This document shows, one piece after another, positions 31,740 through 59,445 of a stretch of DNA of 64,000 nucleotides (position 1 is its first letter; every line of letters starts with the position of its first letter). The stretch is from Stegostoma tigrinum. Lineage: Eukaryota. The DNA lies in the NCBI RefSeq assembly GCF_030684315.1, contig NC_081396.1, positions 3,720,001 to 3,784,000 of the forward strand, read 5' to 3'. The position numbers and the translations under genes were made by a program. The notes below the pieces were generated by a model. The model had not been told where the DNA came from. It worked only from the letters and a program-made list of their open reading frames with translations, and ran no database searches.

Positions 31740-32270
31740 CTTGTTCCTTGTATTACAATAATAAAGTGTATAATTTCGTTCTTTCGTTCGTTCTTTCTTT
31801 CTTTCTTTCTTGCTTTCTTTCTTTTTTACCTTCTTCCTTTCCCCCTTTCCTAACTTCTTTATTTCGTATCTCCTTTCTTTCCTTCTTTTCATTACAATTG
31901 CGAGATGATTAAATTGCTGAATTTTACCGATGTTGTGAGCTCACCAGAGAAACAGATATTCGAAGATTCACCTTTTTGCTCACCATCGTTCAAGTATTTA
32001 AATAATACAACATCGGGCTGTGAGTTTTGTTGTTGGTACCATAGGAAGTAGCAGCTGCTCCATGTCATGTCGCACGTACAGTATAAAGATAACATTAATG
32101 CTGCATTAAAATCTGAAGAAAGCAGCTGATTTGGAAACATACAGTAATGTAAATATCAGATGGATTTGTGTTCAAAACTTAAATGAATACATTGCTCAGG
32201 TTGATATGTGAAATCTTTATAATTACCTGTGAGAAAAGCTGAATACTGATGAATTTCATCCTCCATCTCC
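31740..32270 (-). pseudogene. T-cell receptor alpha/delta V pseudogene
   Basis: Leader ending FLT-G|gtaatt (32227), 114-bp intron, exon from 32112: LSLYCTCDMTWSSCYFLWYQQQNSQPDVVLFKY...FSGELTTSVKFSNLIISQL*; then a microsatellite; then YTLYYC at 31755-31772. FR1 partly deleted; no clear RSS. Confidence 0.8.
31776..31889. repeat. Degenerate (TTTC)n microsatellite
   Basis: Seen directly. Confidence 0.9.
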
Positions 32271-32649
32271 GATTTGTGAAAGGTGGAGATGGAAATGATA
32301 CAAAGGTCATTCCGTTCCTCAACCTGAAAAACCTGCTGTTGCGGGTCAGCTTGCTTACACTCCTTGTTTGCACAGTGGCACTGTGAGGCCAGTAGGCGTT
32401 CAGCAGACTGTTACTGAATGGAAACATCTTGAAACAGATGAGAGACAGTGTTCCCATAGCGGAAAGGATACTGGAAATGAAGCATTAACCCCGACTTCCC
32501 TTCACAAATGTTATAAGATCTGCTGAGATTTTTCAACAAAATCTGCTTTTGTTCCTTCCAGACAGAATGTTTCCACTCTTGGAAATATCGGGAATGATCC
32601 TGAAGCCGTTATTATTTTATGTCTCGAAACGTAAGCTGATCAACAGGTA

Positions 32650-32845
32650 GTAGGAACTGCGATGCTGTAGAATCTGAGATAACAAGGTGTAGAGCTGCAT
32701 GAACAAAGCAGGCCAAGCAACATCAGAGGACCAGGAACGCTGAAGTTTCTGGCTTAGAGTTTATGCCGGAGCCGTCAGCATTTCTGCTCCTATGATGCTA
32801 CTTGGCCTGCTGTGTTCATTCATCTCTACACTTTGTTATCTCAGC
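32650..32845. mobile_element. Penelope-derived fold-back element
   Basis: ctgagataacaaggtgtagag...ctctacactttgttatctcag. Confidence 0.8.
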
Positions 32846-33719
32846 TGATCAATAGGGCTTGTTTATTCTAACAGTAATAATAACTTGCAATTACTTGTAT
32901 TTTCTCGCTTCTCCTATTTATTTTGTCTTTGTGACTGCAGTCTGCATTATCAAAGCATAGAAACTCAGAGGTTTTCTGTCACCACTTCAGCTTCATTGAG
33001 TTAACCACTATTCCCCATTGGTGTGAACAACTTTAGCAGATGCATTATAATCATAGCACCTCAATAACAATGTTAAAATAGAGAACATTGTTTCAAAATT
33101 CGAGAATAGATTCGGTTTATTTAAATGAAGATTTGTATCTACATCAGAAACAAAAGACACATTTCCTGGAGAAGGTTAGCATGTCTCGCAGCATTTGTAA
33201 ATGAGAAAACAGAGTTAACGTTTTGGGTCCAGTGTCGTTTCCTCAGAACTGATGCTGCCAGATGTTCTGAACCTCTCCGGCAACGTTGCTTTACTTCCTG
33301 AGTTACGGCATCTTCAGTTCCTTCGGTTTTTACTTATATCTACATTATCTGCTTGGGTCAGCAGTTAACAGTTAACATCCCACTGCAGCTTTGTGTCTTC
33401 ATACTGTTAAAACTTTGCTCCATGCAAATTGTTCAACTTATCTCTTGATTTAAATACCTCACTGCATTGAAATGAACTGAATGAGTGGCAACAAGCCCAA
33501 ATGGATGTGAAAAAATTATGCATTAATATCTTGCATTCATTCCAGGATTCAGCGATATTTTAGCTAATGGGCATAGACATTGAAACGCCAACAGATAAGC
33601 TCTCTCAACTTTCTGTATACAGACTGCACGTTGCACGTTTAAGATAACCCCATGATTACTGTGCGGTTCTAGTCATTCAGGAAGATTAGTGCATCCCAGA
33701 AATCGCCCTAAATCCTTTA

Positions 33720-34060
33720 TTAGTTAACAAAATGAGGACCTCGCTGGCTAGGCAGAATTTATTGCCTATGCCTAATTGCCCAAAAATCAGTCCAGAATGC
33801 TATGGGTCTCGAAGACACATGTAGGGCAGACCAGGAAAGAATGGCAGTTTCCTTGCCGAAAATCCACTAATGAACCAGATTGTTTACTTTTTCCAGATAA
33901 TCAACTGTGAAATCATGGTCATCATTGGACTCTCCATTCCAGATATTTTATTGAATTCAAATTCTACCATCTGCCGTAGTGGAATTTGAAACCATAACAT
34001 TATCTTGTCTCCAATTTTACAGTCGAATGATAATAACATTCGGCCGTCACTTCACCCTGA
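33720..34060 (-). mobile_element. Deu-type SINE
   Basis: gctggctaggcagaatttattgcc...ttccagatattttattgaattcaaattctaccatctgcc is the reverse complement of the 25690 family. Confidence 0.75.
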
Positions 34061-34654
34061 TGTTCTTCCATACTAAGTTATTTTCTTTCTCTTCAAGCAG
34101 CCCTTACTTTAAGTGTAGAGTTGCTAATCTCACGAAATCGTTTCTACTTCCAATTCCTTTTCCGTTGTCTATTCATTTCTTAGATTTCGTTTCATATTCT
34201 GTTCTATCTGCAAACAGTTGCTTTCGCTATTTCCATCTGTTAATCTCCTTTATTATGTACTGATCTGTCAAAATTTTGGTCACTATCTCTAAATCATTTC
34301 AATCACTGTTTTTTCACTGTTGATACCTCAATATCTTGCTCGAAACATGCATCAATTTCTCTCAATGTCTTTCTCTCTCATTCACTCAATGTTTCTTCTT
34401 TCTTCATTTACTTCTCCCAATTTCTTAGTTTTGCTTGTTTTTGTACTGTTGGTCATGGCACAGACCAATCACATTCAACAGATTTCGCACCTTTGTGTCA
34501 CTGCAAATTACCAGCACATTTCAGAGCATGAGACATCAGTAATTGTGCAGACCTGAATTTGACCATCAGTGCAATATCATGCTGACTCGTGATCATCATG
34601 GCTTATTCCTTTATCCTCATTGAAAACATTCAAAAATCTTGAAGTTTTTTTTTG

Positions 34655-35140
34655 TTTTAAAATGTAGTTGTGAATTGGCTTGTGCAAAGGGGAGAGAATG
34701 CAGGCGAAGTAGGAAGAGATGTGATCATTGTGGCAGTAGCTCGGAGAGACAATGAGTCGGCAGGGGTCGTTGTGCTTATGGATTTTGTGGAACAAGTTGA
34801 ATCGGACAGTGTTGGTCTGGGGTGTCTATCAGGTTGGAATTTGGTGGGGGGTTGAGGATGGTTATCAGCAGAGGACACCAGAAGCAATAAGGTAAGGGAC
34901 AGTTTCGGAGACAGTGGCTTGATGAGGGGCGTGGTATCAATTTAAGACATGATGTCAGAGAGTTGAATTTTGGCCTTTGTGGCACAGAGCTGCTTCCTGC
35001 ACAAACACCGTCCCTGCCTTTGTCACCGGGCTTGACAGTGAAATTAGTAATGGTGTGGAGAGATTGGAGCACTGCACATTCGGAGGGAGAGACGTTAGAA
35101 TTGGTGAGAGTTGTCGTAAAATTCAGGCGTTCGTTGATTT
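34655..35140 (-). mobile_element. Penelope-like element RT fragment
   Basis: NVSPSECAVLQSL...TVKPGDKG and KIHKHNDPCRLIVS...ISSYFACILSPL. Confidence 0.85.
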
Positions 35141-38100
35141 GGGAATTCATGCTTCAATAACTGAAGAAAGAGTTTCTCTTTTAACCCATGCCTGTGTCAA
35201 TAGTTTGATGTGCGAGACTGCTTTCATGTGTAACCGTGTCAGTGATTATCAGAGGTAGTTGGAGTTGTCGAGTTTAGCTGACAGTCAGATTAGCTCTCAT
35301 CTGACTGACTAGCGGACCAGGCGAGTGTGACTGAATGAGTCATAGTCAAACCCAATTCACTTGATAGTATCTGATGTTACAAATAATTCAAGAGGATCTT
35401 GGAGCAGTAGCAAGGGTGTGGGCACACGGTATGGCGAGTGATCCAGATCCAATTCTGCTTGAAATCATCAGACCACAGGTGCTGGAGATCAGAAATAAAA
35501 ACTGGAAGGGTGTGGAATTCTCAGAAAATCAAATGCACCTATGGAGAGAAAAGATGAAGCTAAAAAAAAATCAGAACTAAACTTTCCAGTTCAATGTCAT
35601 TCTCCTTTGGAACCGAAGAGATTTGGTGAATTATTAGTTTCAACATAGTGAAACGGGGGAGGAGGGGCGTGGTTTGGGAAGATGAAAACAAACAGAAGTT
35701 CTACGAAAATAAAAGTGGTGAGTGACTTTGGAAACCATATTGCATAAACTAAGCTCAGAAACAGTCTTGATAACTGCAAAGAAGACAAACCATCGATCAA
35801 GTGCAACTGTTGACAACAGAAAGAAAACCCTGAATGAAAACAATGTCTTCAAAACGAAGACACAGATTGAGTAGTAATTTTCATATCAAAATGAAAAACC
35901 CAGTTCGTAACCTGAACTTATTCAACTCTAAAACGCAAAAAATGGAGAATGTTGAAGTAACGTGTCGATTGACCATATACTCCAACTATCCTTGCACATT
36001 CTCTTTTGCACTTTTGCATTCTCTTTTGTACCTGCAATATAAATAATCCAAGAATATACAGGACAGCCATTCTCCTTGCAGATTTCGTCATCATATGATT
36101 TCTGTTTTCTTGGGCAAACTCATTTTCATTTTCTGTTGCATTTTATTTTATTTGAGGAAATATTCTTTGTCGATGTAAATCTTGCATTTCTTGCATTTAT
36201 TCTCACCTTCTCTTACGGTCACTCGTGAAATATTATTGGTAATTGTTGGTGACGCTGGATCTGCTTTAACAATATGCCTGTGGAAGCTATCGCTTTGAAC
36301 CATCACTAGATTCATTAAAGAAAAATAGCCTGCTATCTCACTAATACTAAGAGATTCTATCATTGGTGTAATGCATTTTTTCTGCCTGTCCATCTCCTGT
36401 GAGTCTTCTATAGCTCATTCCAAACACTGGGCATAATATACTGTCCGGATATAATGATTCAGAAACAACGTAATGCAATGGCCCATTTCCAGAACAATCG
36501 ATAAGGAAGAGTCAATGCAGTTTGACAGTAATTTCAACAAATCAAATCTATCAGCCTTTTGATGGCAGGAACTTAATGCAAATAGAATAGACTATGTCAT
36601 GACTAGCAGAGGATACGGGAAGAATGCAATCGAATGATGAGAGATTGTGCTTGAAATAAATGAAGGGAAATGTTACTTCATATCCAGAAGGCAAATGGTG
36701 TGGGATTTCACAGTTCACAGCTGCGTAATCCAAACTCTCCCAGTGACTGTAATGAGCGAGATGTCTGAAAGACTTGTGCTGAAAAGCATTCACTTTACTT
36801 TCCAAAGATCGAGCGTTCCGTTACTCACAACAATGCATTTGACTGTTAGTTTTATGAATGAAGCTTAACAACTCCATTGCCTACAATTGGCGATTGTTGG
36901 AATTGTATTGCATAGAATGTCTTGCACAGGAACTGTAGCTGGTCCGTGCCAATGTTTATTTTCGACACAACTCTTCCCCCGGAATGCAACATCTGAAACT
37001 AATCATGTCTTTTCTGATTTTCTTTCTTCTTCCTTCTTTTAGCTCTTTTTAACATTATCCGCGATAATTAACTCAGTAAATCCATTTGAGTGCATGTGTG
37101 CGTGGACTGCAGTAAAATGCAGGAAGCTGTTATGAGGTTAAACAACAAGGTAGCTATTTCCTGATTACAATCAACATTGATGATCGTTGTAATTTTTAAA
37201 TGTAATTCAGGTCCATTCATCAACACAATCTACATTTCCCCTCTTTTGTAGCGTTATTATATCTCATGATTCTGGAATATTCATTTCAGCATCTGCAACA
37301 CAAGACCATTATTGCATGCTTTATGTGGTCCTTGGCAGTTTGTGTATCACTTATGTGATTGTCAGGCTGTTGCTGTTATTGATTCACTTTTTCGAAACGT
37401 ATCTTTGAATGGTGGTCATTTCTGAATATTGAACTGAACGACTGGGCCTTTGGTACAAAGGAGTTATTGGACTTTAGGAAGTACTGTACTATAGGCTAAG
37501 AGTCAGGCAAAAATCAAGCAGACTATGTGGAAATCCTGTAACATCATATAGCAAAATGGCATAAAGGAACTAACGAAAAAAACCCTTACATTCTATTTTC
37601 CAAATACAAGTCATCCAGTTATAATATTCGAGTTGGAATGTATTCTTGTTCATCATTTGCTTCACGATTGTTTAAAATCAAATTTGATAACACAGGAAAC
37701 AGCAATTGCAGGACATTGCAGATTTCAAGGTTTCTCCATTTAGATTACGCCATGGTTACTGTATATGAATGTCAATTTCGTGCACTTGTCCCATGTCTTT
37801 CTTTCTTTTGATGTAAGAGCGTCTGTTGATTGCTATTTTGAATTGATTTGGCCGCTGACTACCAATAATTGTCTTTGAAATAATCCACAGGTTTACAACC
37901 GCTTCGTGCAAAACTTCACCTTAGCTCTGCCCAAAATGTCAGAAAATTTCTGATACCGTAGCCTGGTATGAGAGACTTTGCTGCATCGTGAATGAAAGCA
38001 GCAAGACCAATTTTTGCATCCTTTAATAATTCTATTATATTTCATTTCCACAGGGGAGGAATTTCAAAAGTCACCCCTGAAATGCTAATTAATCAGTTAA

Positions 38101-40879: not shown

Positions 40880-41899
40880 AAACTAATCTTCCAGCTCAGC
40901 GAGCAGTCTCACATCCAATTACGTGCCTCGTCCCCAAGATTGCTCCCCTAGACTGCTTTGCCATTAATTGGTGTCTGCTCTATCCTTCTTATTTGGAACA
41001 AACTGCCATGCCTCACATTAATCCAAACTGAACTCGTGGTTCCATTTTCACCCAATTAACCATTTGATCAAGACCCCTTTGTAATATTAGAAAACCTTCT
41101 TCACTGTCTACAAAACGGACAAATATGATGTCGTCCACCAACTTAATAACTATACTTGTTATCTTTCTCAGTAAAAAAAATCACACAAATGACAACCAAA
41201 AGAGGACCCAGAAGCAATCGCTGTGGAAAACCGCTGGTCGCAGTCTCCGTTCAGAAATGCAACGTCTCCCATTTTTTCTATCTCTGTTTAACCGTTCCCT
41301 GATGGTATCGCGAACTCAATAGCTGTGAAACACGACTAGGGTACAAAGAAGAATAAAGAACCAGTTAATTGAATGTAGACATAAATGCAAGGGTTAGATA
41401 ATAGAAGAACAGTGAGATAAATTGCACTGATCAACTGTGATCCCTCATGCCAGTAACATGCTCGGTATGAGCCTTGTGTTGCACACTACTTTTGTTCCAA
41501 ATTTTAAATGTCTCTCTTGCAGTTGGTCTATTGTTTAAGGTACGGCAGGGGAGGTGCTGTGACGTGTTGGTCATTTCCATGCTTGTTAGTAATTGCTGTC
41601 CATGAATTTATCTGGTCAATCAATAATTGATTCTACTAATGATGACGGCCATATTGTGTAGAAATAGACAAATAACATTCAGTGACAGCTCGTACCATTA
41701 GTTGATGTAGAAAATAAAATGTCATTCACTCTTCAAAGTAGGCATTGTCGAGGTGGCACTGTCAGCGCTCATGCAAATTTAAACACTCGTATTAAGGATT
41801 TAACTCTTATCCACATTTTCAATTAATTATCGTCGACTGGCAATGACGGTATTCCATTTCACGGTGTCTCAAATACAGCACAGCACTGACTGGTCTCGC

Positions 41900-42321
41900 A
41901 GCTGCGCTGAGAAGATTGCGCATGGATCATTTCTGACGGGTAATTGGCAACCTAATTCGTTTCTTTCTTTAATTTAAAAAAGATATCTGCCTTGTTAAAA
42001 TGAACAAGTCTATTCTGTTAAAACATATTCCTCAGTTCTGAGGTTTGAAGATTCTGTCACTCCACTCCTGTCCTCAAAATAAAATCTAAGAGTAAAAACA
42101 ATTACTTCATATTTTATCCATTACAACACACGGAACGTCAATTGTTTATGTTGGTAACCGTGAGATTGCATTGACAAATATATCAGTGGTAATGAAGATA
42201 AACCAAATTGTGCAAAGGCCATTTCTTCTGCAGAGTTTGAAATCACAGCTAAAATCCTCACTTCATCGATGTCGTATTGGTAGCTCGCTGATACTACAGT
42301 TTGTTACTGCGCCATGAGAAG
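41900..42321 (+). pseudogene. T-cell receptor alpha/delta V pseudogene
   Basis: Decayed leader AW..FLT-G|gt (41939), 96-bp intron, exon from 42036: FEDSVTPLLSS...CLCW*...SSAEFEITAKILTSSMSYW*LADTTVCYCAMR. Confidence 0.85.
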
Positions 42322-42360
42322 AACAGTGATGGAAGTCAGTCAACCTTTAAAGCAGAAACT
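42322..42360 (+). promoter_or_regulatory. 23-bp-spacer recombination signal sequence (heptamer mutated)
   Basis: AACAGTG + 23 nt + GCAGAAACT immediately after the CAMR codons. Confidence 0.85.
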
Positions 42361-42757: not shown

Positions 42758-42763
42758 CACAAA

Positions 42764-43028
42764 TGAGATGTCGTTGGGATAACAACGCATTGATTTCTAT
42801 ATTCTTGAGAAATCAATTGTTTTTATCTACTGACACAGGGATACACGGACATTGCCTTAAAACTTCCTTCTCGACTAGATTTAAGTGTGAAACTTTGTAA
42901 ATCCTTATTTTCCAACACATAATTAGAAAGACACTGCCTCGAGATTCCTGCCTGAATAGAATTAGGTATAAGCTTTGTTCGTCTTTATCTTTCCGCACTT
43001 CGGTATGTGGAAACTGTCTCAAGTAAGA
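42764..43028 (+). repeat. ERV 5' LTR, truncated (U3 start only)
   Basis: Matches 50376-50640; the rest of the LTR and the PBS are missing; splice donor cagGTAAGT near 43115. Confidence 0.9.
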
Positions 43029-43412
43029 CTAAGTTGGGCAGCGTTTCCTCAGGTAACTGGATTATCCGGGAGGTTAGAGTCCTTCAGTTGCCGGGGTTAG
43101 TGTGCCGAGGTCAGGTAAGTGGAAAGTCTGGGAGGTGAGATTCCCCCGGTGGATGGGGTCAGAGTCCTTAGGCCAGGAAGTAAAACTGCCTTCGTAAGTC
43201 TTGGGGTGTTCGATTCAGATTGGAAAAGTAGGATAAGTCTTCAGACGTAGGTTTCGGATAGTTACAGTACCTGTCTGTCTCAACCACCCTGCCTTAGATC
43301 GGTTGTTCAGAGGGGAAATGCCCGACGCGAATGTTGGGTACCCGAAGTGGGTGCGGAGACTAAGGAGACTGGTGTTGTATACAGAAATAAGTAAAAAGTA
43401 AAGGCACTAAAA

Positions 43413-45534
43413 ATGGGACAAATGTTAGATTAGTCGGGTGTCGGAACCCCTTTTCATCGGTTTTACCAGGATGACCTCGAAGAGGATATACAGTACCGAA
43501 GTCTGTTGGAATGCCAAAACAAAAAAAAAGGAAAATGAGAATCGCCATTAGGTGGAACGTGGGATATTGATCTATGTGCTAAAGTACTCGAGGCAATATC
43601 GACACGTAATGCGGGAAGTAAATGGAAACGGTTGATATCATCCCGGAAAAAAAAGAGAGCTGAAGAGCTGAATGAAACATCAAAAATGGCTAGTTGGGTG
43701 GAAAATGCACGGAGGAAAGGGATTAGTGCATGTGATAGTCAGGGAAAACCTAAACCTTGGGAGATTTTAACGCCGCAGTGTGAGGGTCATGAAATGAATG
43801 AACATGGAAGAGTGAAACAAGAAAGGCTGGAAAGGGAACGTTGGGTCAAAAAACGGGGATGAGAACTGCTGACAGAAGATAAAAAAATCGGAGGTAACTC
43901 CTGACATACCTGGCATGCCAATGTTTCTCAAAAAATAATGACACAGGTAAGCAAGATGAGGAGAACTGGGGAAGGCACCCCTTGTCCCATCGGGACTACG
44001 AACCCCTCCACAACTCGAACCATCCTTGATCAACCTACATCTGCAGGCGCCCCAATACTGCCATCAGTCTCAGGAATCGCCCGGAGCCCTATTACTGCTA
44101 TTGCACGCTGACCACAAGAAACCTCCTACTACAGAATTCCCAAGTACTTCAGAAATCAGTCCACGTGAACCTTCTGACAAACCCATGGCTTGGACAGGCT
44201 CTATTTCCTGTCATTGTACATATGAGCCTAAACAGACAATCAGGAAACAAAATACGGAACAGACCACAAGTGGACAAAAGGAGCGGGGTGCATCACTCTT
44301 TTAAAACCCACAGGGGATGCCTGAAAAAAATGTCAGCCCCGCATGCAGTTTCCTCAGCCCACGAGTTCCTGTCTTGTGTCACCTCGCGATGCTGCGAGTG
44401 GTGATAAGTATGTTAGTTCCGATTCAAGGGCTGATGATCATGAACCTGAGGACAGTGCTTGGGAGAGACCCTCGGACACCCCTCCCCGAAAGAAAGACCC
44501 CCATAAAAGAAATCCACAATCTCTGAATCGTACGATCCCTCACCTGAGCCCAACACAGGGGGATCAAAATACTATGCAGACCGACACTCCTTGGAAGCTG
44601 CAGGAGATGTGTTTAATTATGCTAAGAGCCACTAATAGAAAGACTAATCCTGACGACTTCACAGGCTATGTCCTGAGCAGTATTCATATGCACCAAGGCA
44701 CCCCGCAAGCCCTCTTTAGACTGCGCTGTATGGCTCTTACCCTCAGTGAATTTTCTCTGTGGAAAATCCCCCTGGGAGACCCAGCTCCCCAAGACTGGAA
44801 TGCTTTTATAGGTCTTGTAGCTAAAGGTCTTAAGCTACTAACCATTAAAGATCCCCTCAAGCGAGCATTGCAGCAACCAGTAGATATTCCCAGAGTGTCA
44901 GAGTGCAAATCCAAACGCGGGGAATGAGTTCTGGGAATGTTTCTTTTCCACATATGCCACCTACTCTGGTAATACTGCCTACTTTGCAGGGAATCCCTCA
45001 CCACAGTTCAATGCTCTTTTGCTGCAGTGTATATCTGAGGCTGTGGCGGTGGCTATTCGTACCAATAACATGGATTGGCCAGATAATAACCGTCCTCAAG
45101 TGGGAAGGGCCTTAACTTAATACCGGAAGGAATCCTTACTGACAAGAGTCACATATGACATGGTGTAGCATCACCTGTGCCAAGCCAGGTCCAGAAAACC
45201 AGCTCATCCAGCATTGGGCTTCCAATTAGTGAGGGCATTTCACACAGAATCCCAATACTAATTTCCTGGCTGCATCGACAATCATGGCAACGGTTTTGTC
45301 ACTCACCCACACGGTCCTAATGCTCTTCACTATGGAGCACCATATGCACCCGCTCCACCATTCCGGAGACCCAGTGCCGCTTTGCCGCGAGGCGCAACAC
45401 CACACTCTACTGACGGATGTTTTAACTGTGGCAGTTGGGATCAGTGGATGAGGACTTGTGCTCAGAATCAAGGTCAAGGGAGAACACAAGGAAGAAGGCA
45501 ACCCTTTTCCACGAATAATCCTTTTTCAGCCTGA
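43413..45534 (+). pseudogene. gag: ERV gag
   Basis: MGQ start, LGGTWDIDLC matrix motif, capsid remnants (ORF 44343..44927), single knuckle CFNCGSWDQWMRTC at 45418-45459, NPFSA-TGA end. Confidence 0.85.
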
Positions 45535-45537
45535 TGA

Positions 45538-48500
45538 TCTTCACCCCATAATCTGCACATTTTAAAGAGAGATCCGGAGGATCAACCTATTGTTAATCTA
45601 ACTGCACAAAGGGTAGCAAGTTCTTTTGTGATTGTTCCTGGGGCCAAGACCCATGCTATGTTGGATGCATCATGTGTACAGCAATATGGGTTTACACTCT
45701 CACCCGTCTCAGTAAGCCTTAATGGACAGACTGGACAGGCAAATGCATACTCTTTAACAGAACCATTGGCAGTTCAATTTGGCCCTGAAAACTGTATTAC
45801 TTATTTTGCCCAGACCATCACTTTGGGAGTTAATTTAGCTGGGACAGATTTGTTGTGCCTTCTTCAAACTGAAATTCTGTGTCTCAACAAGGGCGTTAGT
45901 GTCAAAAGTGACCCGATTATGCGACATTTTTGGGTCCATCGATCGCCACAATGATGGAGAATTGACCTCTCTCTAAGAGATATCACCCTTTTCCTCCAAA
46001 TCCCTCGTCCTCAAGTTGACTTGTGTTATGGCCCTACAGGGACTTCCTGTTAATTGGCTGGTATTTACCCCCTATCTCGGATCAAGTTTATCTGTCACTA
46101 TTGTCGGGTATATGGAGGGTAAGGAAGAATCAGCGTTTCTGGCGGAGTGCCACCCCATCTATGCCATGAATCGTTCCTGGTATTCCCTTACTTCACACTG
46201 GCTGTGAGCACCGGCTACAATGTCAAGTCCTTGGGATTTCTAGTGCACCTCTTGATCCCACAATCATACGTGGAAGTGAAGGGTTATTCAGCGCAGGTGG
46301 CTGATGGTCTCATTACATATTATAGTGATCATTTTCTTGTCTTTGGGCCATTACGTCGCCACCATGCTCATCATAGTGCCTCTAAGGAGTCTTCTCCAGA
46401 CCTGTGGTCTACTTCCACACCTGAGGTAGGATACACTCCGGTCACCATCGTAGGAGTGCGCTTACCCTCAATACCTCAGTACCCCGTCAAACCTGAGACA
46501 GCGGAAGGAATAACCTCCCTGATCAAGTCGTCCCTCCAACCAGGTATATTGTTCCCTTGTCAATTGCCTTGCAATACTCCTATTCTGCCCCTCCCTAAAC
46601 CCGGTCGCCAGGAATGGCGACTGGTCCAGGACCTCAGACAAATAAATAAGATAGTGCGACCCTGACATCCGATTGCCCCTAATCCTGCCACTATGCTTAG
46701 CAACATCCCCTCAGATGCGTGTGTCATCACCGTTTTGGACTTGCAACATGCATTTTTCATGATTCCCTTGCATCAGGGGTCTTAATATCGGTTTGTCTTT
46801 TACTTTAAAGGACAGCAGGAGACCTGGACTTGTCTCCCCCAAAAGTTCATTCACTCGCCTGCCCTAGTTTCCCAGGTCTGGCATCGCCAGCTCTAAGATC
46901 TCCGACTCTTGGATGGCTCCACTGTTATCCAATATGTTCACGATTTGCTCTCAGCAAGCCCATCATAATCCAATAATGTTTTGGATACAAACAGCCTTTT
47001 GAACGCTCTTCAAACTTGGGCATGTCTTATGACCACTGTGAAGGTTACGTGTAATCAACAGCAGGGGCCGTTCCCAGGAATTCTGCTCAGCGCCTGGGAA
47101 CAAACGCTCACCCCTCAGCGCATTGCTCTTATTCAGATGAACCACGCCCATAACCCCAAAACAAGTAAGGGCCTTTTTCGGCTTGGTAAATTATTGTTGA
47201 CAGTGGTTCCCTACTGTCCCTTTGCTTTAAAATAAAACTACCGACCCCTTTAGCTTCTTGTAAAAACCCAAAAAACCTTCACTCTCTCTGACAAACAACA
47301 GTCAGCCTTTGCAGACTTAAAAGCAGACCTTGCGGCTGCCCCGGCTTTGAGAAGACCTTTACATGACAGACCTTTCCGGCTATATGTTAATGTTGTGTAT
47401 GGGTGCACCACTGGGCTCTTGACACAGACTCGGGGCATGGGCAAACAACCGGCCAACGACGATTGTACCTGCCTGGACTCTGTCGCACATGGGCGTACAC
47501 CTTTGTTCCAAGATTCTTCTTGCAATTTATTCTTCAGCCACTGCAGCCTCTAAAGTTACTCTCCACCAGCCACTTACTGCCGAAAACTCACATGCCATTG
47601 ACGTCATCCTCTCCTCCCACCAGACTCAACATCTTACCCAGGCACATTTTAGCTGCTACGAAGTCGCACTCCTTAACAATCCGCTCGTAACATTCTCTTT
47701 CTGCTTCACAAATAACCCAGCCACGTTTTTGAGCACCAAACTCCGATGAGTATTTAGCACACCTGCATGACTGCTTACGAAGGAACCAATTTCTAACATT
47801 TCTGCGCCTGTACCTGATTGATGTCACGGATCCTTCTCCGGATGTTATCCTGTTTGTTGATGGCAGTTCCTCCAAGTTCCCCTTGGGTAACACTCTGAAT
47901 ATCTCATTGTCGATGTTGCCTCAGATTAGAATCAATGGTGTTTGAGCCCCCAGTGTCCGCTCAGAAAGCAGAACGTTTTGTCCTTACTCTGCTTGCATCC
48001 TAGCAACAGGGAAGTCAGCGAATATTTACACAAACTCTCCGTATGCCTTCAGAGTCACCCACAACTTTGGCCAGTTATGGTGTCAGGATGGGTTTTTAAC
48101 ATCTTCAGGTTCACCCTTCCAACATTCCTCGTTTGTTAAAAACCCTCTCCAGACAATCCTCTTCCCTAACCAAGTGGTTTTTATCAAATGCGTTGCCCAT
48201 GCCTCCGACGAATCCGGAGTTACTCAGGGCAACAGTCGGGGTGATCAGGCGGCCAAACAGGCAACTGCAGATCAAACTTTTATTGTGCCATGTACGAACA
48301 AGCAGGTGGGAAATCCAATGCCTCATTCGGACTAGATGGGCATACCAGAAATAGTCACTGTTCAGCACCTACAGGGCGATGTCCCTGCTTCTGAAAAGGA
48401 CATTCGGACGGTGCATGGATGTTCGTATTCTGCATCGTCAGGCCTTTGGATTACCCTCGTCGGCCAAATGTGTATACCTGTTGCTTTGTTACCAATGCTT

Positions 48501-49505
48501 GTTGACTGTCTGCATTCTGACACCTACTTTGGCAAAGAGGCAATGAGTGGTATTATGCTCCGTACCTTGTGGCACACCCGACTGGCTGAGGCACCCGCCC
48601 CCTGGCCCAGTCTCAAAGACCATCATTTCTCACATGCAAGCAAAACAATTTTGGTCTGGGGGAGACGTGCTCACCAGGAAAAAAAATCAAGTGGACCGTT
48701 TGAATGCATTTAACTGGATTTGATTGAATTACCTCGTGTAATTAGTTGTCAGTATTGTCTTGTCATTGCACATTCATTCAGTAGGTGGAGAGAAGCTTTC
48801 ACACTGACACAAAACAAAGCCTCAACAGTAGTGAAGTTATTATTAATTGAAATAATGCCAAGGTTAGGAGTGACTCGACAATTTAGTTCTGTCAATGGCA
48901 TCACTTTGTAGGAAAGATTAATAAGGAACTGTGTGATACGTTATGCATCCAGCAGCAATTGCAACGTTCATACCAACCCTCAGTGTCAGGGATAGTGGAA
49001 AAAGAGAATGGAACGCTCAAAGCGAAATTGACCAAGTTGATATCAGAGACTGGCCTTAGCTAGTTAAAGGTTTTGCCGCCAGCTTTGTACCACACGCGAA
49101 GAACACCCTATTCTAAGACTGGACTCACAGCAACAGAAATCGCCTATGGCTGACCCAGCAAAACACCCTGGGATGCCAATACCAGCCCACCCACCCAAAT
49201 TGACTTGAATGTTGTGGGAGAGGAAATGCAAAGTTATTTTCTGCAGCCAACATCGTCTCCAAAGTTTCTCCATTCACTGGTGAAGCTGGTGAAGTGTACC
49301 ATTGGAACACCGTTGCAGGCACTAGACCAAGACCTGAAGACTAGAATCGCTCTTCATGATGACAGATTGGAGATTTCGTACTTGTCCGAGATTGGGATCA
49401 CCCAAATCTTGGGTGGAGGTGGAACGGGCCATTCTTAAAACTCCAACAGCTCTATAAGTTAAAAGACAGAATCACTGGATCCACCTCAGTAACTGCAAAC
49501 GACAG
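45538..49505 (+). pseudogene. pol: ERV pro-pol (PR, 2H-like insert, RT, RNase H, integrase)
   Basis: IVPGA (decayed DTGA); QYP, CNTPILP, WRLVQDLR, LDLQHAFF, QYVHDLL (YVHD at 46933-44); LFVDGSS; FSRWREAF, EIMPRLG; WIHLSNCK. Confidence 0.95.
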
Positions 49506-49533
49506 ATTCCCTCTTCCCCTTGCAATTCACCAT

Positions 49534-50340
49534 TTGAATGAGGATTATTCTGACAGTGCATGTCCAGCAAACAATCTGTTGCACAGAACACACGTCCAAC
49601 TGCACGGGAATCAGACAACATGTTACCTGCTACCAGGCAAGAAGGGATTCGTTTTCCTTCTTAATGAGACCTTCACGATTGCCACTAAAATTTTGCTGGT
49701 GCTGTTTGCTGTTGGGGCCATTGGTCGCCTCATGGTCTCTTGTCCCCAATGAGCGTGGATTCAATGGCGAATTGCCACACGCTTCCTGAGCCTGTAGTTT
49801 TGCGATGCATGGCAGGATCCAATTGCCTTGGGCTCTTCCTTGTGTTATGGCTTCCTTGGAACTGTTAGCTTGGGAGGATCCCCGCGGTGGAGTCCGTAAG
49901 TAAACCGAAATTACCTGAGATGTAGACTCACCACCCTGGGAAACAGCACAATGAAAGCATTGGAGGCAGTCAACCGAGAATTTGCCAAACTTCATCTCTG
50001 TGCTCATTCAACCCGGTATGCAATGGACCATCAACTGGCTCAGCAAGGTGGAGAATGTATTATCATGGAGGACAAGTACATGACCAAGTTACAGATGAGT
50101 CCTATAGTATTACCCAGGATATGCAAGCCATACAATGGCACTTGGAACAGTAGAGAGAGGGGCCCTGACCGGGGCAGGGTGGCTCTTTAGCATGGTTTAT
50201 GGGCGGGTCTTGGGTCTCATACCTGCTACATGAGCTAGTTATTCTACAAGTTGTCATAGCGTTTGCTGTGTGTTTATTGTGTGCCTGAAATCTTGATTCA
50301 GGCATGCGTTTGCCAGATCAGCAGCTCCCTTCTTGTCCCT
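49534..50340 (+). pseudogene. env: ERV env, internally deleted
   Basis: TRYAMDHQLAQQGGECII resembles the immunosuppressive domain; hydrophobic anchor LVILQVVIAFAVCLL. Confidence 0.8.
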
Positions 50341-50375
50341 GACATATGTTAACATGAAATAATAAACGGAGGGAA

Positions 50376-51167
50376 TGAGATGTTGTTGGGACAACATCCC
50401 ATTGATTTCCACATTCTAGAGAAGTAAATGCTCTTTACCTGCTTACCCAGAAGTATGTGGACAATGCCTTCAAACTTCCTGCCCGACTAGAATTAGGTGT
50501 AAAACTTTGTAAATTCCAATCTTCCTACACATAGGTGGAAAGACACTACCTTAAGCTTCCTGCCTCAATAGAATTATGTACTAACTTTGCCAGACTTTAT
50601 CTTCCTGCGCAGGGGTATGTGGAAACTGTCTCAAATAAGTTGAGGTGTGTAGTGTTTGTAAACGCGTGAGACTTCTGAAATCCTGTAAAGAATGTAACTT
50701 CTGTTTCTGCTAAATGGGCCAGGGCACTGAATATTTTTTTTTTCAAGCCAGACACTTTGGCGTCTTGAAGTTACATTCTTTCACTTCAGCTACTTGAAAT
50801 CGTCTCCTGCTCCTAGCAGTCACTTCACGAATGATCGATACTGCATCCTGCTGTCTGCATGTTTTTCATGTTGTAATTGTTTGTGTATCATGTCATTGCC
50901 CGATGTAGAGATTGTTTCATGCAACATGCCATTGTGAGATGTAAAATTGCTTTGTCTGGTATGCACTCGATAAGGTATAAAAATTGGGGACTGCCCACTG
51001 CTCGGAGACAATCGCTTCTGAGACTCTGCACTCTGTGCTAGGTTGAGTACAGTGATCCTCCACAGATTGTACTTGCTTCCTAATACTGGGTTTGTGTTTT
51101 TTTCTGAACAGGTCAGTGTCTTGTTATTGCATCAAGTACGTCAAGGTCTCCAAAAACAAACATATCA
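50376..51167 (+). repeat. ERV 3' LTR (about 790 bp)
   Basis: tgagatgtt...aacatatca terminal inverted repeat; TATAAAAA at 50976. Confidence 0.9.
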
Positions 51168-51219
51168 ATAAATGGTCCCTATTATCAGTTTTTCTTGCTC
51201 CCCAGCTCACCATTACGCA

Positions 51220-52290
51220 CAATGTTTGTCTGCCCAGCTACTGTTCTCTTTGAGTTCACAGAACATAGAACATCGAACACAGAACAATACGACACAGAAC
51301 AGGCCCTTCGGCCCTCGATGTTGCGCTGACCGGCAAAGTAATCTAAGCACATCCTACTGACACTATCCCATCATCATCCATTTGCTTATCCAAGGACTGT
51401 TTAAATGCCCCTAATGTGGCTGAGTTAACTACAATTGCAGGCCGGACGTTCCAAGCCCTTACCATGCTCAGAGTAAAGAATCTGCCTCTGACATCTGTCT
51501 GATATCTATATCCCCTGAATTTGTAGCTATGCCCCCTCGTACAAGCTGACGTCATCATCGTCGAAAAAAGACTCTCACTGTGCACCCGATCTGATCCTCT
51601 GTTCATCTTATATGTCTCAATTAAATCCCCTCTTAGACTTCTTCTCTCCAATGAGAACTGACCCAAATCCCTCAGTCTTTCTTCATAGGTCCCTCACTCC
51701 AGACCAGGCAACATCCTGGTAAATCTCCTCTGCACCTTTTCCAATGCTTCCACATCCTTCCTGTAATGGGGCGACCAGAACTGTGTGCAATATTCCAAAT
51801 GAGGCCGCACTAGCGTTTATATAGATCCATCTCAATCTGTCTCCATCTTACTAAATGCAACCATCCATGGCTGCCCGACTTTCCCGTTTCCTTTGCATAC
51901 AGATCTCTGTTTCCAGGTGCATTTGGCTCTGAAGAAGAATCACTGTACCGGAAATATTGAGGCTGTTGAATTTCCAAAGATGCTGTCAGGCCCCCTTAGA
52001 TCCGAATCAATTTCTATTTCAGCCTTTTTCTGAATTTTGTTGGAATGATAACACTGCCGTCTATGTGCTTATTTCTAACAGCCAGTACTCCAATTCGTTG
52101 TCAATTCTTTCACGATGTTACCGCATTTCAGGACCAGATGTTGAAATACTTGCTTCATCCCCACAGGCATTCATCTTTTTAAGGTCATCAATAGAAAGAT
52201 CCAATTTTCTCCGAGACTGTCAGGCAAATTCGGTTTCCAAATGAAGGGGAATTTCAATCAATGAGGGATACATGGGCTCATGCACCCCAA
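51220..52290 (+). pseudogene. Possible heavily decayed antigen-receptor V gene (leader plus V exon)
   Basis: Leader-like M..AQLLFSL; acceptor ttctaacag at 52081; frameshifted HDVTAFQDQ..VEI.C, HQ*KDP..SPRL and FQSMRDT. Confidence 0.35.
51260..51822 (-). mobile_element. CR1 LINE 3' end (relatively young)
   Basis: ORF 51343..51666 FSLERRSLRGDLIETYK...TRGHSYK...FFTLSMVRAWN; (agaacat)n tail. Confidence 0.95.
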
Positions 52291-52655
52291 TAGTTGGATA
52301 AACAGCCTCTGGCTCTCAGCACTCATCCCACTCAGGTCTTTCTCTTGGCATGGGGATGATATCAATCACCCAAGGTCCACACTGACGAGGAGCATGCGCA
52401 GCAGAATGGTAGTAAAGCCTCCAAATGTGAGGGAGGATTGAGGCTATCAGTTGAATGAGAAGTTTCAGTAACACCTCGGGGAGGTTGCCAGGCCTGATTG
52501 TCAATATGCTACTACTTCCTGGGGTCGAGTTTGTCAAAGAGAGCAGGGCCGGAATTTCCTGGGCGAGGTCTGAGGCCTCGAATAAGAGAGTCTCACGTTG
52601 CGACTGTACCCCGCCGGCCTTACTGGCGGCTATCGTAGTGAGAACACCATCAAAT
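52290..52655 (-). mobile_element. LINE fragment
   Basis: tcccactcaggtctttctcttggcatgggg...cagttgaatgagaagtttcag resembles shark LINE RT 3' regions. Confidence 0.45.
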
Positions 52656-53399: not shown

Positions 53400-53870
53400 A
53401 AATGAGGCTTCATCTGATCATCCAAACTGCAGGGACACCTGGAAACCAGCAAAATGAAGAAACTGTGGTAATGTAATGATTATGGGAGAGTATTTAATTA
53501 TCCATCCAGGTTACTAAAGGTTGACCACAGACATAAGGAGATCAGCACCACACCATATCCAACGATCTGTGGGCACAGTCAAGAATTCGATTGTCATTCC
53601 TTCCTGGGATATTCACACAGTGAAATGAAGATGAAGTCATTTACTTGCTCTGTGTGTGGGAAGGAATTTATTAAGTCCAGCATCCTGCTGTCATATGTTT
53701 GTTCTCACATTCAAGATTAGCCATTCTGCTGCACTGTCTGTGGAAGGAGGTCCAGGCGTTCATGTGAATTCATTACTGAGCAGCGAATTGGCACTGGAGA
53801 GTGGCCATTCACCTGCTCAGTATGTGAAAGAGATTCGCTCAGTCATCCAATCTGCTGAGGGTCCTCCCTG
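53400..53870 (+). pseudogene. C2H2 zinc-finger pseudogene
   Basis: KSFTCSVCGKEFIKSS.LL...SH.QD*PFCCTVCGRR...TGEWPFTCSVCE. Confidence 0.85.
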
Positions 53871-55219: not shown

Positions 55220-55543
55220 GAATCGAGCGAACTTGTAACTCCATTGTGTGTCTTTAGCAGCTTTCTTGTCAAACAATGGTCGTGATGTTTTTATAAAGGC
55301 TGTGACCTTTTGTGTATCAGAGGAAACATTGATGGCCTCCTTGCACTTTCATTCTGCCTGCAGATTATCCTATCAGACATATCGAGTGAAAGATTAGTTT
55401 ACATTAATCGGCCACAAGTTAGAGAAGCATTAACTGAAATGAATTCATGAAACGAAATCTGACGTACGTGTGTAACATTTGGCTGGATTCGGATCTAGGC
55501 GGACAAACTTGGGAAAATATATCATTACTGTTGGCCCTTGAAG
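55220..55543 (+). pseudogene. Possible NCR3/NKp30-like germline VJ-type V-set exon remnant
   Basis: ELVTPLCVF...CFYK, REALTEMN, TYVCNIWLDSDLGGQTWENISLLLALE followed by a gtaag donor. Confidence 0.4.
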
Positions 55544-56001
55544 TAAGAATTAAACAATTTCAAGTTTCATACATATTCATTCCACATTTCTTTACCGTTT
55601 CAGAGAGCATTTTTATCGAAACATTTCTGTTAAAATTACCAAAAAATAACATAATTACCCGATGCCACATTGAGATGATAATGCATGAGCACTGAGCTCT
55701 GAATTTTATGCTCATCGGTAGCAGTAACCAGAAGAAGAAAATACGGGGTCAACATAGAGGACAGACATCAATTCGGAACAAGAATAACAAGAAAAAAAAG
55801 CACAAGTTGACTTCAAACAACTGGAAACCTACAAATTATTGAAAAAAATAGCTATTTCGACAATATGAAACAAGGTAAATTGGAAAACCCATAGAATATT
55901 TTCTCAGTTACTCACATAAGCTATTTTTTTCCTCTCACTGCTAGTGTCGACAGCAGGAGCGATTGTACATTTGGAATTCAGTGGCCTCGATAAACATAAA
56001 A

Positions 56002-56046
56002 TTTATTCAAGGAATTTCCTTGGGGTCACAAATTCATTCACTTGAC
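56002..56046 (-). pseudogene. IGHM: IgM heavy chain TM2 exon (VK-stop) and polyA signal
   Basis: ttttttcag|GTC AAG TGA (56046-56038); AATAAA at 56007-56002. Confidence 0.9.
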
Positions 56047-56185
56047 CTGAAAAAAGAATGTTTAGGTAATGATTTAGATGTTTATGATCAGAACATACAG
56101 GTTTTAATTTTAATTCAATGACACACATCAAGATTTCACGAGCCACAATGACCTGGTGATGTGTGAATGATTTCATTCTTCTCAC

Positions 56186-56302
56186 CTTCACCAGCGTGAC
56201 AGCAGCACTATAGAAAATGGCCAGGAAGAAAAAGGTGATGAATGTAGAAGCAGAAGATGTTATCATCCTCAAAGTCTTCAATCCAATTATGATCTTTCAA
56301 AT
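56186..56302 (-). pseudogene. IGHM: IgM heavy chain TM1 exon, frameshifted
   Basis: tcatag|(D)LKDHNWIEDFEDDNI-[frameshift]-ASTFITFFFLAIFYSAAVTLVK|gtgaga; CART motif present. Confidence 0.92.
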
Positions 56303-59055
56303 CTATGAATATAAAGCCAAGATAACGGATTTAGAATGTTCATTTATCCAATCCGATGTATCTTTATCTAAATAATGTAATCAGGGACCACAACACATTC
56401 TTCAAACCGTCAGGTTGTTCTCAAATGTGCTACTTGATCTCTATCTATTATTGTGTTAGTTACTCTCAGCAATAACTTGCTAACACTAATTGCACACGTT
56501 CTTCCTTTGTTTTCCATGTCTCAACATTTTGACACATTTCTTCATTTAAACTGTTCTGGGAGAACATAATTATTGTTATCATTCCGGACATACTGATTGG
56601 GAAAGATGATATGAATTCTCTCAATATATTTTCAATACAGGCTTTTACAGCTGTTACGTTGAAAATTGTGGACATCACTGAAGATGATTTCAAATGTGAT
56701 TATTCATCTTCTTTATTTATATGCGTTCAATTGCTTGAAAAATCAGAAGCAAAACTTAGATCCAGAGCAAGATATTTTTTCACTGTGAACTTTCCCTTAT
56801 TTTATTTCAGTCTATCACTTACTGTGCATTTTTTTTTCTTTATTGTTTGGTTATATGGTTATCAGGTTCTTTTCCTTCGCACTTGTCCACATTGAAGCTT
56901 ATGCATGACTGAACATATTCCTGTTGCCTTGTTGCTGGTATGATCATTCACATTTTTGTGCTTGTGGAGGTAAATTGTGTTCATTTCACAATGTGCCAAA
57001 ATCATTTTTTTTGACACGTCACTTCATTTGGTGATACCTATCTTTATTTTTTCATGACTTTGTGTTTTTTTCTTTTACGTCGTGCTCCGGAAAATGTGTG
57101 TTAATGTATCGATTTCAGATTCTACCAGACTGAAATTATTTTCACGTTTGCACTCCATCAATGTGTTAGTTTTTTATGTACCTTCATGTTTTGCTTGATG
57201 AGTATATTTAAGTGATGATATGGTTTCCTTGGGAATGCATCCTAAACCATCTTCTGATAGGATTTCTTGTGCTGTTGCATCTGAATGTTTACTGATGTTG
57301 AGCCATTCCCCTTTTGTTGCAAATACCCGACTGTGTGTTGAAATATGCACTTCTGTGTCTGCATGTGAGACTCATGAATTGTGTTTAAAAGTGTCCGTGT
57401 TTATGCGCTGATCATTTATGGTTTAAAAGATGCCACTAAGCTGCCTCTTTGTTCATATGACTATATTTCTTCAAGTGAGGTAATAATGAGATTAAATTTA
57501 TCTCTGTGATCTTATATATGTGCGTGTGAGTGAACCTGTGGGAGGATATGGTTCCGATATTTATATCTGTTTATAATTGCATGTCTGTACGTATGAATAT
57601 ATGAAAGGATATGGATTCATGAACATTTGTGTGCTGAAATGTGTCTATGATTTCAAGTTCATGTGGAGTTACCATTTTTTGTTTGGGTGTGTTTCTTTCC
57701 ATGCACTGGATGTTTTTGTGAGAGTCTGTGTGACAGCTCATAGATCATATGCAAATATTCCTCTCTGCATGTATGCATATGTGACAGTTTATCTGTATGT
57801 GCATTTATATTTGCACATATGTATGTCCCTTTAGGCGAAAGCTTGTGGATGAGTGTCTTTAGAGCAGTTGTGACTGTCTCTATCTGTGTTTCTTTCTGCC
57901 CTAACACAGGCTGTGTTTTATTTTTCATTATTTTGCATTTTTAATTGATTTGCAATGACTATTTCTGATCCTGATGGTATAGGGAACATTTCTCGTCTGA
58001 ATTAAAGATAAGCACTTTGTGATTGACGCTTGATGCAAAGGCCGAATTTCTGTCTCTGTGATGAAAGACCTGAGATCAAATTTCCACGACTCCAGAGATG
58101 TAAAGCAACATTTCTGTGTATGTTGGATATAAAATATGTCCAAGGTAAGTGAAAGAAGATGTCATCGGTGTTTGTACAGCAGAACTGATTCCACGGGTTC
58201 AAGGAATTTTAGTCAAGTCTGTGGAAAATAGCTACACTAATGCTAATTTGGTTTTGTATGATGCGGAATCAATGTTAACAGATGATTAATGGAACAAGTA
58301 TGTCCAACATACTTCAAAGGAAGTATGTGGCATGGAAAAATTAACTCATTGTTCAGTCAGGAAGAAACTGACTGTTCCTGTTCGGTACAAAATCACATAA
58401 CAGAGGGTGTACAACGTGAAAACTTGGAGAGTGGAGTAAGCTGAGATCTCGTTAATTGTACTCATTTCTCCGTCTGCTTGACAAGAACAAAATTTCTTTT
58501 TGTTATCTTTGGTGTGGAATTGAAGATACATTCTGTCAAGTGGTGCACTGCTGCAAGATCACTGGACGCCCCCAGATAAAACAGAAAAATTCAAGTCATT
58601 CTGAACCCTATAAAATAAGTGTCCAAGTCAATGCTAACTTGTCAGTGTGTTCCAATAAAAAATAATGTTAAAAGTCTCTGAAGTTTATATTGCCAGTTCA
58701 GGCAGTGTGCCAGTTTAACGCTGGCATGAAATTTACAGATATGTCTCATTGAGGACTCATCAAAACAAAGATCATAATTGGTGCTGTTCGTTTGTGATGA
58801 AATGGGCATTGCAAAATTTCGTCGCAGTGTGATTTAAATTGCAGAAGGTAATTTCTAGAATCCTGCAATGAACGAGCATCAGTCTGTCACTGAAAAGGAC
58901 AAATCTAGGCAGGGAGCATTAACTGCGCAGGCTAAAGTACCTGAACTGTTAATTGTCGACAATAGCGAGAAGGACAGAATATTATAAAACGTGGGAAATC
59001 AATCAATCAATTAAACGGTTGTCTATTTAGAGAACAATTGGAGGAAAGAAAACAG

Positions 59056-59445
59056 TTTATTATTTTTATTGAATTCTTATGTGTATCCTTGAGACTTTCA
59101 TTGGCATGAACTTATGGTGTCCATCAGTGCAAGCGAAATATTCACAAAACTCGGTTTCCCGCTTGATTTATCAACTGTTCTGTTGATGATCTTCAATGGG
59201 ATCACTTCGTGTCCCACCATACAGGAGTAAGAAGCACCGCTGGCACACACCTCTGCAGCAATGGATAATAGGATGTAAAAGAAGAAGGAGGTGTTATCGC
59301 TGTCTGTCGTCACCTCGGTGTTCATATTGTTCGTCGGATTAACTGGCTTGTCATTGGTTGTCCACTTGACGAAGCTCTCTCGGGGACTGAAACCTCTCAC
59401 TAAACAGTTGAGTGAAACAAACTTCTGTGCGGACACTTCTTCTGT
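59056..59445 (-). pseudogene. IGHM: IgM heavy chain CH4 plus secretory tail, 5'-truncated, with polyA signals
   Basis: [23 protein letters not shown]...[43 protein letters not shown] (stop at 59098); AATAAA at 59070-65 and 59061-56; exon start replaced by a CR1 tail. Confidence 0.95.

What the first reader, a model, noticed from the sequence alone, without database searches (positions are those of the whole stretch)
31740..59445. TCR alpha/delta V pseudogenes and an IgM constant-region remnant within 28 kb
Seen: two TCR Valpha/delta pseudogenes pointing away from each other (one with a 23-RSS), and IgM CH4-sec, TM1 and TM2 exons 14-17 kb further on. Established: shark IgH genes are normally separate miniclusters, and the shark TCR alpha/delta locus is known to use Ig-like V segments and to harbour defective IgH clusters. 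Inference: this is either part of that mixed locus or a decayed paralog of it, recording how Ig and TCR parts became physically linked.
Basis: partly seen in the sequence, partly recalled or inferred. Interest (0 to 1): 0.8.

Follow-up and report, generated by a model that had tools for sequence, protein, structure and literature searches.

The report
Shark IgM–TCR tandem duplication scar
Two dead T-cell-receptor gene segments and the broken tail of an antibody (IgM) gene sit in a 117-kb block repeated five to six times inside a shark's known mixed antibody/T-cell-receptor region, likely as passengers copied along with a working IgM gene, so the finding is ordinary apart from its readable duplication history.

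Summary
Window 31.7–32.3 kb (−) and 41.9–42.4 kb (+) are dead TCR Vα/δ segments; 56.0–59.4 kb (−) is a dead IgM CH4-secretory/TM1/TM2 tail. They are not a decayed paralogous locus and not a misjoin. The window is about half of a 116–119-kb tandem unit. The 28-kb interval aligns at 96–98% to four other copies, and each unit carries a complete IgM minicluster; the nearest ends about 12 kb beyond the remnant, outside the window. The remnant is a duplication-junction scar: it breaks inside CH4, is sister to another IgM lineage (82%) rather than to its neighbour, and has lost its splice acceptor, TM donor and TM1 frame in 5 of 5 copies. The same contig holds the only TCRα and TCRδ constant regions found, D/J segments 2.8 Mb away, and intact Vα/δ blocks on both sides of the IgM block. 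This layout, including TCR V pseudogenes beside IgM pseudogenes, is published for other sharks (PMC12227049). The region records later amplification, not how Ig and TCR became linked. Interest is low.

The parts
32227..32266 (-). V1 leader-exon remnant (GT donor kept, about 13 nt shorter than intact leaders)
31755..32165 (-). V1: TCR Vα/δ pseudogene exon; damaged acceptor; stop and (GAAA)n insertion at about 31775-31893 in FR3; second Cys codon at 31755-31757
31683..31727 (-). RSS-like trace after V1 (TACAGAG, 29-nt spacer, ACAAAAACA); not a valid 23-RSS, may be chance
41890..41939 (+). V2 leader-exon remnant (donor GT at 41940; start approximate, no ATG at the aligned place)
42036..42321 (+). 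V2: TCR Vα/δ pseudogene exon; stops, FR2 deletion, first Cys lost
42322..42360 (+). Dead 23-RSS of V2: AACAGTG, 23 nt, GCAGAAACT
42764..51840 (+). Insertion absent from older IgM clusters: decayed endogenous retrovirus (LTR starts about 42764 and 50376, 79% alike; RNase H remnant; right end about 51.2 kb, approximate) followed by a retroposon fragment
56038..56046 (-). IgM TM2 exon (VK-stop), intact in sequence
56186..56302 (-). IgM TM1 exon, 11-nt deletion (117 vs 128 nt), frameshifted in 5 of 5 remnant copies
59098..59445 (-). IgM CH4-secretory exon lacking its splice acceptor and first 15 codons; internal donor to TM changed GT to GG
59445..59452 (.). Duplication junction: IgM CH4 joined to a high-copy repeat tail; sequence to the right matches C55:3311820 onward at 92-95%
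59449..64000 (.). Downstream flank of the complete IgM gene A5, whose TM1-to-leader span lies outside the window at C55:3791235-3812931

Best explanation
The finding is three dead gene fragments (two TCR Vα/δ segments and the 3' tail of an IgM gene) that form part of a 116-119-kb tandem unit also holding a complete IgM minicluster, and they were likely copied as passengers when that IgM gene was amplified inside the shark IgH/TCRα/δ region. Shown: unit structure, copy number, lesions, position 2.8 Mb from the only Dδ/Jδ/Cδ/Jα/Cα found, intact Vα/δ blocks on both sides. Inferred order: (1) an old IgM cluster with flanking TCR V segments was duplicated as a module (non-coding identity now 70-82%); (2) a retrovirus inserted between V2 and IgM in the lineage leading to clusters R and B; (3) a non-homologous break inside CH4 of cluster R joined its 3' tail to DNA 12 kb downstream of IgM gene A; (4) the resulting unit was amplified, likely by unequal crossing-over, to six A genes and five R tails (92-99%). 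The fragments likely have no function; the IgM A genes are the working parts.
For: Tandem offsets 116-118.6 kb. Map of 884 kb: A-type IgM x6, remnant x5, V1 x6, V2 x6 in fixed order. Window 31.6-59.6 kb aligns at 96.5-97.8% over its whole length to 4 of 4 other full units. Junction at the same place in 5 of 5 remnants, continuing into sequence that matches the array's left end. Tree of 16 CH4-to-TM regions, 3207 columns: the five remnants form one clade (97-99%) sister to cluster B (UFBoot 100, 82%), not to A genes (79-80%). V2-type pseudogene about 9 kb downstream of 7 of 7 plus-strand IgM clusters at 4.26-4.87 Mb; empty provirus site in clusters C, P4264 and P4867. LTR pair 79% alike and R-versus-B provirus 78% alike give matching ages. 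A1 and A3-A6 have open L-V and C frames, 23-RSS and two D; A2 has one stop in C. Contigs from 3 runs with this species label join CH1-CH2-CH3-CH4 at GT-AG sites; two show poly(A) ends and one a TM1 splice matching A3. One Cδ-type and one Cα-type exon in the genome search, both on C55; 1 D, 10 J, C, 63 J on the minus strand, 0 J on the plus strand.
Against: The complete parent gene R is not in the stretches held: B is only 82% alike, so a further deletion (near the doubled provirus at C55:4.006 Mb) or old divergence with homogenisation must be assumed. 3 IgM clusters (2.79, 3.06, 3.26 Mb) show no V companion in about 30 kb downstream, so the module is not universal. Contiguity between 0.98 and 2.8 Mb of C55 was not inspected. 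No listed contig piece spanned the CH4 junction (list cut). The V tree is a quick one with long branches; support for the clade holding V1 and V2 is SH-aLRT 90. The kind of runs X8-X10 is not on record, and their contigs are not assigned to A5 itself.
Confidence: 0.86

Rival explanations
1. The window is a decayed paralog of the TCRα/δ-IgH locus, separate from the working one.
For: All three parts in the window are broken.
Against: Only one Cδ-type and one Cα-type exon were found, on the same contig; open-frame Vα/δ with canonical 23-RSS lie on both sides; complete IgM genes flank the window.
Confidence: 0.02
2. The V-IgM adjacency or the repeat array is an assembly artefact (misjoin, or haplotypes stacked in tandem).
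For: Some units are near-identical in places (A4 and A6 share CH1 and CH4 at 100%); no long-read check was possible.
Against: Five copies at 96.5-97.8% share the order; VH differ by 3-10% among A1-A6; 70-80% diverged clusters on the other strand keep the same V2-IgM spacing; no N in 884 kb other than the masked 133 nt. Nurse shark IgM genes G2A and G5 are 120 kb apart (PMC2435157, passages).
Confidence: 0.04
3. The remnant serves as an alternative 3' end (extra CH4 or second membrane anchor) for the complete IgM gene 12 kb upstream on the same strand.
For: Same strand and close; TM1 acceptor, TM1 donor, TM2 and a poly(A) signal are kept; four other copies have a 170-codon open frame through CH4 (one with a stop).
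Against: CH4 acceptor and 15 codons gone, the Trp of the AEEW motif changed to Cys, CH4-to-TM donor destroyed, TM1 frameshifted in 5 of 5 copies; each A gene has its own intact TM exons.
Confidence: 0.03
4. V1 and V2 derive from non-rearranging IgSF V genes rather than TCR V segments.
For: They are very degraded; Pfam is weak or silent.
Against: Best 13 DNA hits for V1 and best 11 for V2 are the Cδ-proximal TCR V family; 20 non-TCRα/δ V domains score at or near shuffle level; V2 ends in a 23-RSS remnant rather than a joined J strand.
Confidence: 0.02

Closest known systems
Elasmobranch antigen receptor complex (AgRC), Flajnik et al. 2025, PMC12227049
   Same: [quoted passage not shown] Table S1 lists, in great white shark, an 'IgM pseudo?' followed by a minus/plus pair of 'TCRadV pseudo'.
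   Different: That table lists gene models only. Here the unit, its junction and the ancestry of the remnant are resolved to the base. PSMB5 and UrIg2 were not tested here.
Nurse shark IgM miniclusters (Malecek et al. 2008, PMC2435157)
   Same: VH-D-D-JH within 2 kb, about 10 kb here to CH1, clusters about 120 kb apart; CH4 84-85% identical.
   Different: The window holds only a 3' tail without VH-D-J-CH1-3; the complete clusters are the neighbours.
IgHV-TCRδ trans-rearrangement donors and TAILV (cited through PMC12227049 and PMC5931798; primary papers not held)
   Same: Same chromosome region; the A-gene VH carry 23-RSS and face the same way as Dδ, so they would be possible donors.
   Different: The remnant has no VH and V1/V2 are TCR-type, not Ig-type; nothing in the window can donate.
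Birth-and-death evolution with orphan V pseudogenes and partial C-gene duplicates in antigen receptor loci (recalled)
   Same: Segmental duplication carries dead neighbours and leaves truncated genes at breakpoints.
   Different: Here the passengers belong to a different receptor family than the amplified gene.

Membership tests
IgM heavy chain gene, shark minicluster (remnant in window) | CH4 with secretory tail and TM1/TM2 of IgM type | tested here: met
   84-85% to named nurse shark IgM; exon alignment
IgM heavy chain gene, shark minicluster (remnant in window) | Own VH-D-D-JH and CH1-CH3 | tested here: not met
   Only CH4 hits the window; junction inside CH4
IgM heavy chain gene, shark minicluster (remnant in window) | Usable splice sites and reading frame | tested here: not met
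   Acceptor lost, donor GT to GG, TM1 11-nt deletion in 5 of 5
IgM heavy chain gene, shark minicluster (neighbours A1-A6) | L-VH-23RSS, two D, JH, CH1-CH4, TM with open frames | tested here: met
   5 of 6 open; A2 has one stop in C
TCR Vα/δ segment | Sequence affinity to TCR Vα/δ over VH, VL, Vβ, Vγ and non-rearranging V | tested here: met
TCR Vα/δ segment | Split leader and V exon with open frame and both Cys | tested here: not met
   Stops, deletions, microsatellite insertion
TCR Vα/δ segment | Functional 23-RSS | tested here: not met
   V2 heptamer AACAGTG; V1 spacer 29 nt in five copies, 26 nt in one
TCR Vα/δ segment | In cis with Dδ/Jδ/Cδ/Jα/Cα | tested here: met
   Same contig, 2.8 Mb away; intervening DNA not fully inspected
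Elasmobranch AgRC | IgM clusters linked to TCRα/δ with TCR V between clusters | tested here: met
Elasmobranch AgRC | IgW and IgNAR on the same chromosome | tested here: inconclusive
   Multi-C Ig genes at 0.24-0.56, 2.94 and 8.07 Mb; isotypes not named by any tool
Elasmobranch AgRC | PSMB5 and UrIg2 linked | not tested
   No search made
Defective IgH cluster or TAILV used in TCRδ trans-rearrangement | Ig-type VH with working 23-RSS | tested here: not met
   None in the window
Non-rearranging VJ gene (UrIg-like or other IgSF) | Joined VJ exon without RSS, followed by own C exons | tested here: not met
   V2 ends at a 23-RSS remnant; no linked C exons

The most novel reading that the evidence does not exclude
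The IgM block was founded by one cluster landing inside the TCR Vα/δ array, and TCR V segments caught beside IgM genes were then selected to die, because a live 23-RSS V next to IgM D segments would be cut by RAG in B cells. In one search, 0 of 11 non-VH V hits inside the IgM block (2.79-4.90 Mb) lack a stop, against 46 of 64 on the proximal side and 25 of 27 on the distal side; the 11 descend from only a few founders. The distal intact Vα/δ block would have to recombine across 4.2-4.9 Mb, deleting or inverting all these IgM genes in T cells.
Probability: 0.1. Interest if true: 0.6.

Novelty: new member of a known kind. Interest (0 to 1): 0.25.

Why it matters
As biology it confirms a published layout. 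Its value is as a base-resolved example of how shark IgM clusters multiply: whole clusters of about 117 kb copied with their neighbours, which explains the 120-kb spacing known from nurse shark and likely some 'IgM pseudo', 'C only' and 'TCRadV pseudo' entries in published tables. The pseudogene companions and the provirus give markers to order cluster duplications across species. It does not date or explain the original Ig-TCR linkage.

Tried and rejected
RSS scan of the window at 3 or fewer mismatches found no V-linked RSS; the four hits lie away from any V. Pfam gave nothing for V2. First idea, that the remnant is a copy of the neighbouring A gene, was rejected (79-80%); second idea, that it is a direct copy of gene B, was rejected as too simple (82%). 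No RNA holder listed for window 55500-60000; X8 and X9 contigs gave no cover of the remnant outside CH4, where cross-mapping from other IgM genes is expected: a blank, not evidence. Contig depth was not used as copy number. A search with the A5 VH for named IgHV-TCRδ chimeras returned 10 VH-like proteins, none named TCR: no evidence either way. The careful V tree did not finish; the quick tree was used. Three primary papers (PMC7039070, PMC7909615, PMC3222143) are not held. Earlier-findings look-ups returned nothing. Paper searches showed no paper describing this tandem unit; the library lacks most subscription journals, and the PDF supplement of PMC12227049 was not read.
Full report
Observation. 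All three parts exist at the stated places. V1 lies on the minus strand (leader remnant 32227-32266, exon about 32165-31755) with a stop and a (GAAA)n insertion in FR3; V2 lies on the plus strand (exon 42036-42321) with stops and an FR2 deletion. Pfam is weak for V1 (E=0.005) and silent for V2, but a DNA profile of this genome's intact TCR V family finds them at E=2.5e-18 and 3.8e-12, and finds no other V remnant in the window. V2's 23-RSS reads AACAGTG-23-GCAGAAACT in 5 of 5 array copies aligned; loss of the first C kills RAG cleavage (established knowledge). The IgM tail comprises CH4-sec 59098-59445, TM1 56186-56302 and TM2 56038-56046; CH4 is 84-85% identical to named nurse shark IgM chains.

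What the V segments are. Their best in-genome relatives are intact V genes at C55:0.97-1.15 Mb. [quoted passage not shown] Against 57 V exons from this genome, the best 13 DNA hits for V1 and best 11 for V2 are that family, while 20 VH, IgL, Vβ-like, Vγ-like and non-rearranging V domains score 53-106, near the shuffle maxima of 89 and 98 (those class labels are my reading of the sequences, not tool names). A quick protein tree of 66 rows places both in that clade (SH-aLRT 90; long branches; careful search unfinished).

Where the window lies. It is G000:C55:3720001-3784000 on a 16.4-Mb contig. Constant-region searches found one exon at 947 kb and one at 844 kb, both minus strand. Between 860 and 980 kb a pattern scan found 1 D (12/23 RSS), 10 J, then the 947-kb C, then 63 J, with 0 J on the plus strand: the nested TCRδ/α layout. 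V hits without stops lie at 0.97-2.31 Mb (46 of 64) and 5.15-5.81 Mb (25 of 27), many with canonical 23-RSS. IgM CH4 exons occupy 2.79-4.87 Mb. The IgM block therefore sits inside the TCR Vα/δ array, and the window is in its middle.

The repeat unit. Self-comparison shows a tandem unit of 116-118.6 kb. Over 884 kb (3.24-4.12 Mb) the order is fixed: complete IgM gene A, remnant tail, V2, V1, spacer: six A genes, five remnants, six V1, six V2. Window 31.6-59.6 kb aligns over its full length at 96.5-97.8% to 4 of 4 other full units, which rules out a one-off misjoin between 42.4 and 56 kb. A1 and A3-A6 have open leader-V and constant frames, a 23-RSS and two D segments; A2 has one stop in C (the odd CH2 acceptors are 6-nt longer exon starts). 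Contigs of runs X8, X9 and X10 (kind not on record, same species label) join CH1 to CH4 at GT-AG sites; X8 and X10 show poly(A) ends and X8 a TM1 splice matching A3. These show that A-type genes are transcribed, not which copy.

The remnant. In 5 of 5 copies it begins 15 codons into CH4, joined to a high-copy repeat tail (depth spike; the SINE/LINE label is recalled); the CH4-to-TM donor is GG and TM1 lacks 11 nt. DNA right of the junction matches the array's left end (C55:3311820 onward) at 92-95%. A tree of 16 CH4-to-TM regions makes the remnants one clade sister to cluster B at 4.02 Mb (UFBoot 100; 82%), not to the A genes (79-80%). So it is the 3' tail of a lost IgM gene R, cut at a duplication breakpoint. 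Against this, no complete R was found; the right end of the array switches from 92% to 78% identity inside a doubled provirus, which suggests a later deletion but does not prove it.

Older history. A V2-type pseudogene lies about 9 kb downstream of 7 of 7 plus-strand IgM clusters at 4.26-4.87 Mb, and cluster C keeps V1 and part of V2. The 9-kb insertion at window 42765-51840, mostly a decayed provirus with LTRs 79% alike, is absent from C, P4264 and P4867 and partly present in B at 78%. Three other clusters (2.79, 3.06, 3.26 Mb) show no V companion in about 30 kb downstream. The IgM-plus-V module is thus old but not universal.

Mechanism. Shown: anatomy, lesions, copy number, linkage. Inferred: module duplication, proviral insertion, non-homologous break in CH4, then recent amplification, likely by unequal crossing-over; the dead parts are likely passengers of selected IgM gene gain.

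Comparison with what is known. PMC12227049 (read: parts 1-2 of 8 of the text, passages, and Table S1 whole; PDF supplement not read) reports IgH clusters linked to TCRα/δ in four elasmobranchs, with TCRα/δ-type V exons between IgH clusters; its great white shark sheet lists IgM pseudogenes interleaved with TCR V, including an opposite-strand pair of V pseudogenes. PMC2435157 (passages) gives 120 kb between two nurse shark IgM genes. PMC5931798 (passages) mentions IgM/IgW V use in TCRδ. Searches showed no description of this particular unit; three primary papers were not held.

Verdict. Real, correctly identified, part of a known locus type. New only as a resolved duplication history. Interest 0.25. 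The boldest reading left open is that TCR V segments beside IgM genes are selectively inactivated (0 of 11 hits free of stops inside the IgM block, but from few founders); probability 0.1.

Noticed in passing
G000:C55:5.15-5.81 Mb: A second block of open-frame TCR Vα/δ with 23-RSS (25 of 27 hits without stops) lies beyond the whole IgM block, 4.2-4.9 Mb from the only D/J/C found; mixed orientations.
   Followed up: partly
G000:C55:1048787, 1093035, 1124221, 1194514 (L184, L185, L187, L196): Ig-VH-like V segments with good 23-RSS among the TCR V genes, grouping with VH in the tree and with no C1-set hit nearby among the 150 scored; they resemble TAILV (label recalled).
   Followed up: partly
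window 42764-51840: Decayed endogenous retrovirus with RNase H remnant and LTRs 79% alike, copied in every full unit; doubled and chimeric at C55:3.998-4.013 Mb.
   Followed up: partly
window 59101-59445 versus four other remnants: The window's remnant lacks a 9-nt CH4 deletion shared by the other four and branches first among them.
   Followed up: partly
window 5112-15790: An older internal duplication (80-84%) of the segment right of the junction (window 59589 onward), 54 kb apart within each unit; no genes found in it.
   Followed up: no
G000:C55:3452997-3453374 region (gene A2) and 4094645-4114923 (gene C): A2 has one stop in its constant frame (exon not located); C has stops in V and C and has lost its V RSS; the gene at 3276 kb lacks the usual leader ATG.
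   Followed up: partly
G000:C11:96.07-97.36 Mb (L161-L163): Large cluster of single-exon V genes with a joined J-like end and no RSS, on another contig.
   Followed up: no
window 59015-59546 and 60073-60278: Contigs of runs X1 and X3 show joints skipping 530 and 204 bases (short sides of 20-30 letters); may be variant copies or repeat artefacts.
   Followed up: no
P0006: [quoted passage not shown]
   Followed up: yes
P0029: A database protein labelled Aeromonas veronii is 78% identical to shark IgM CH4, likely host contamination of that record.
   Followed up: no
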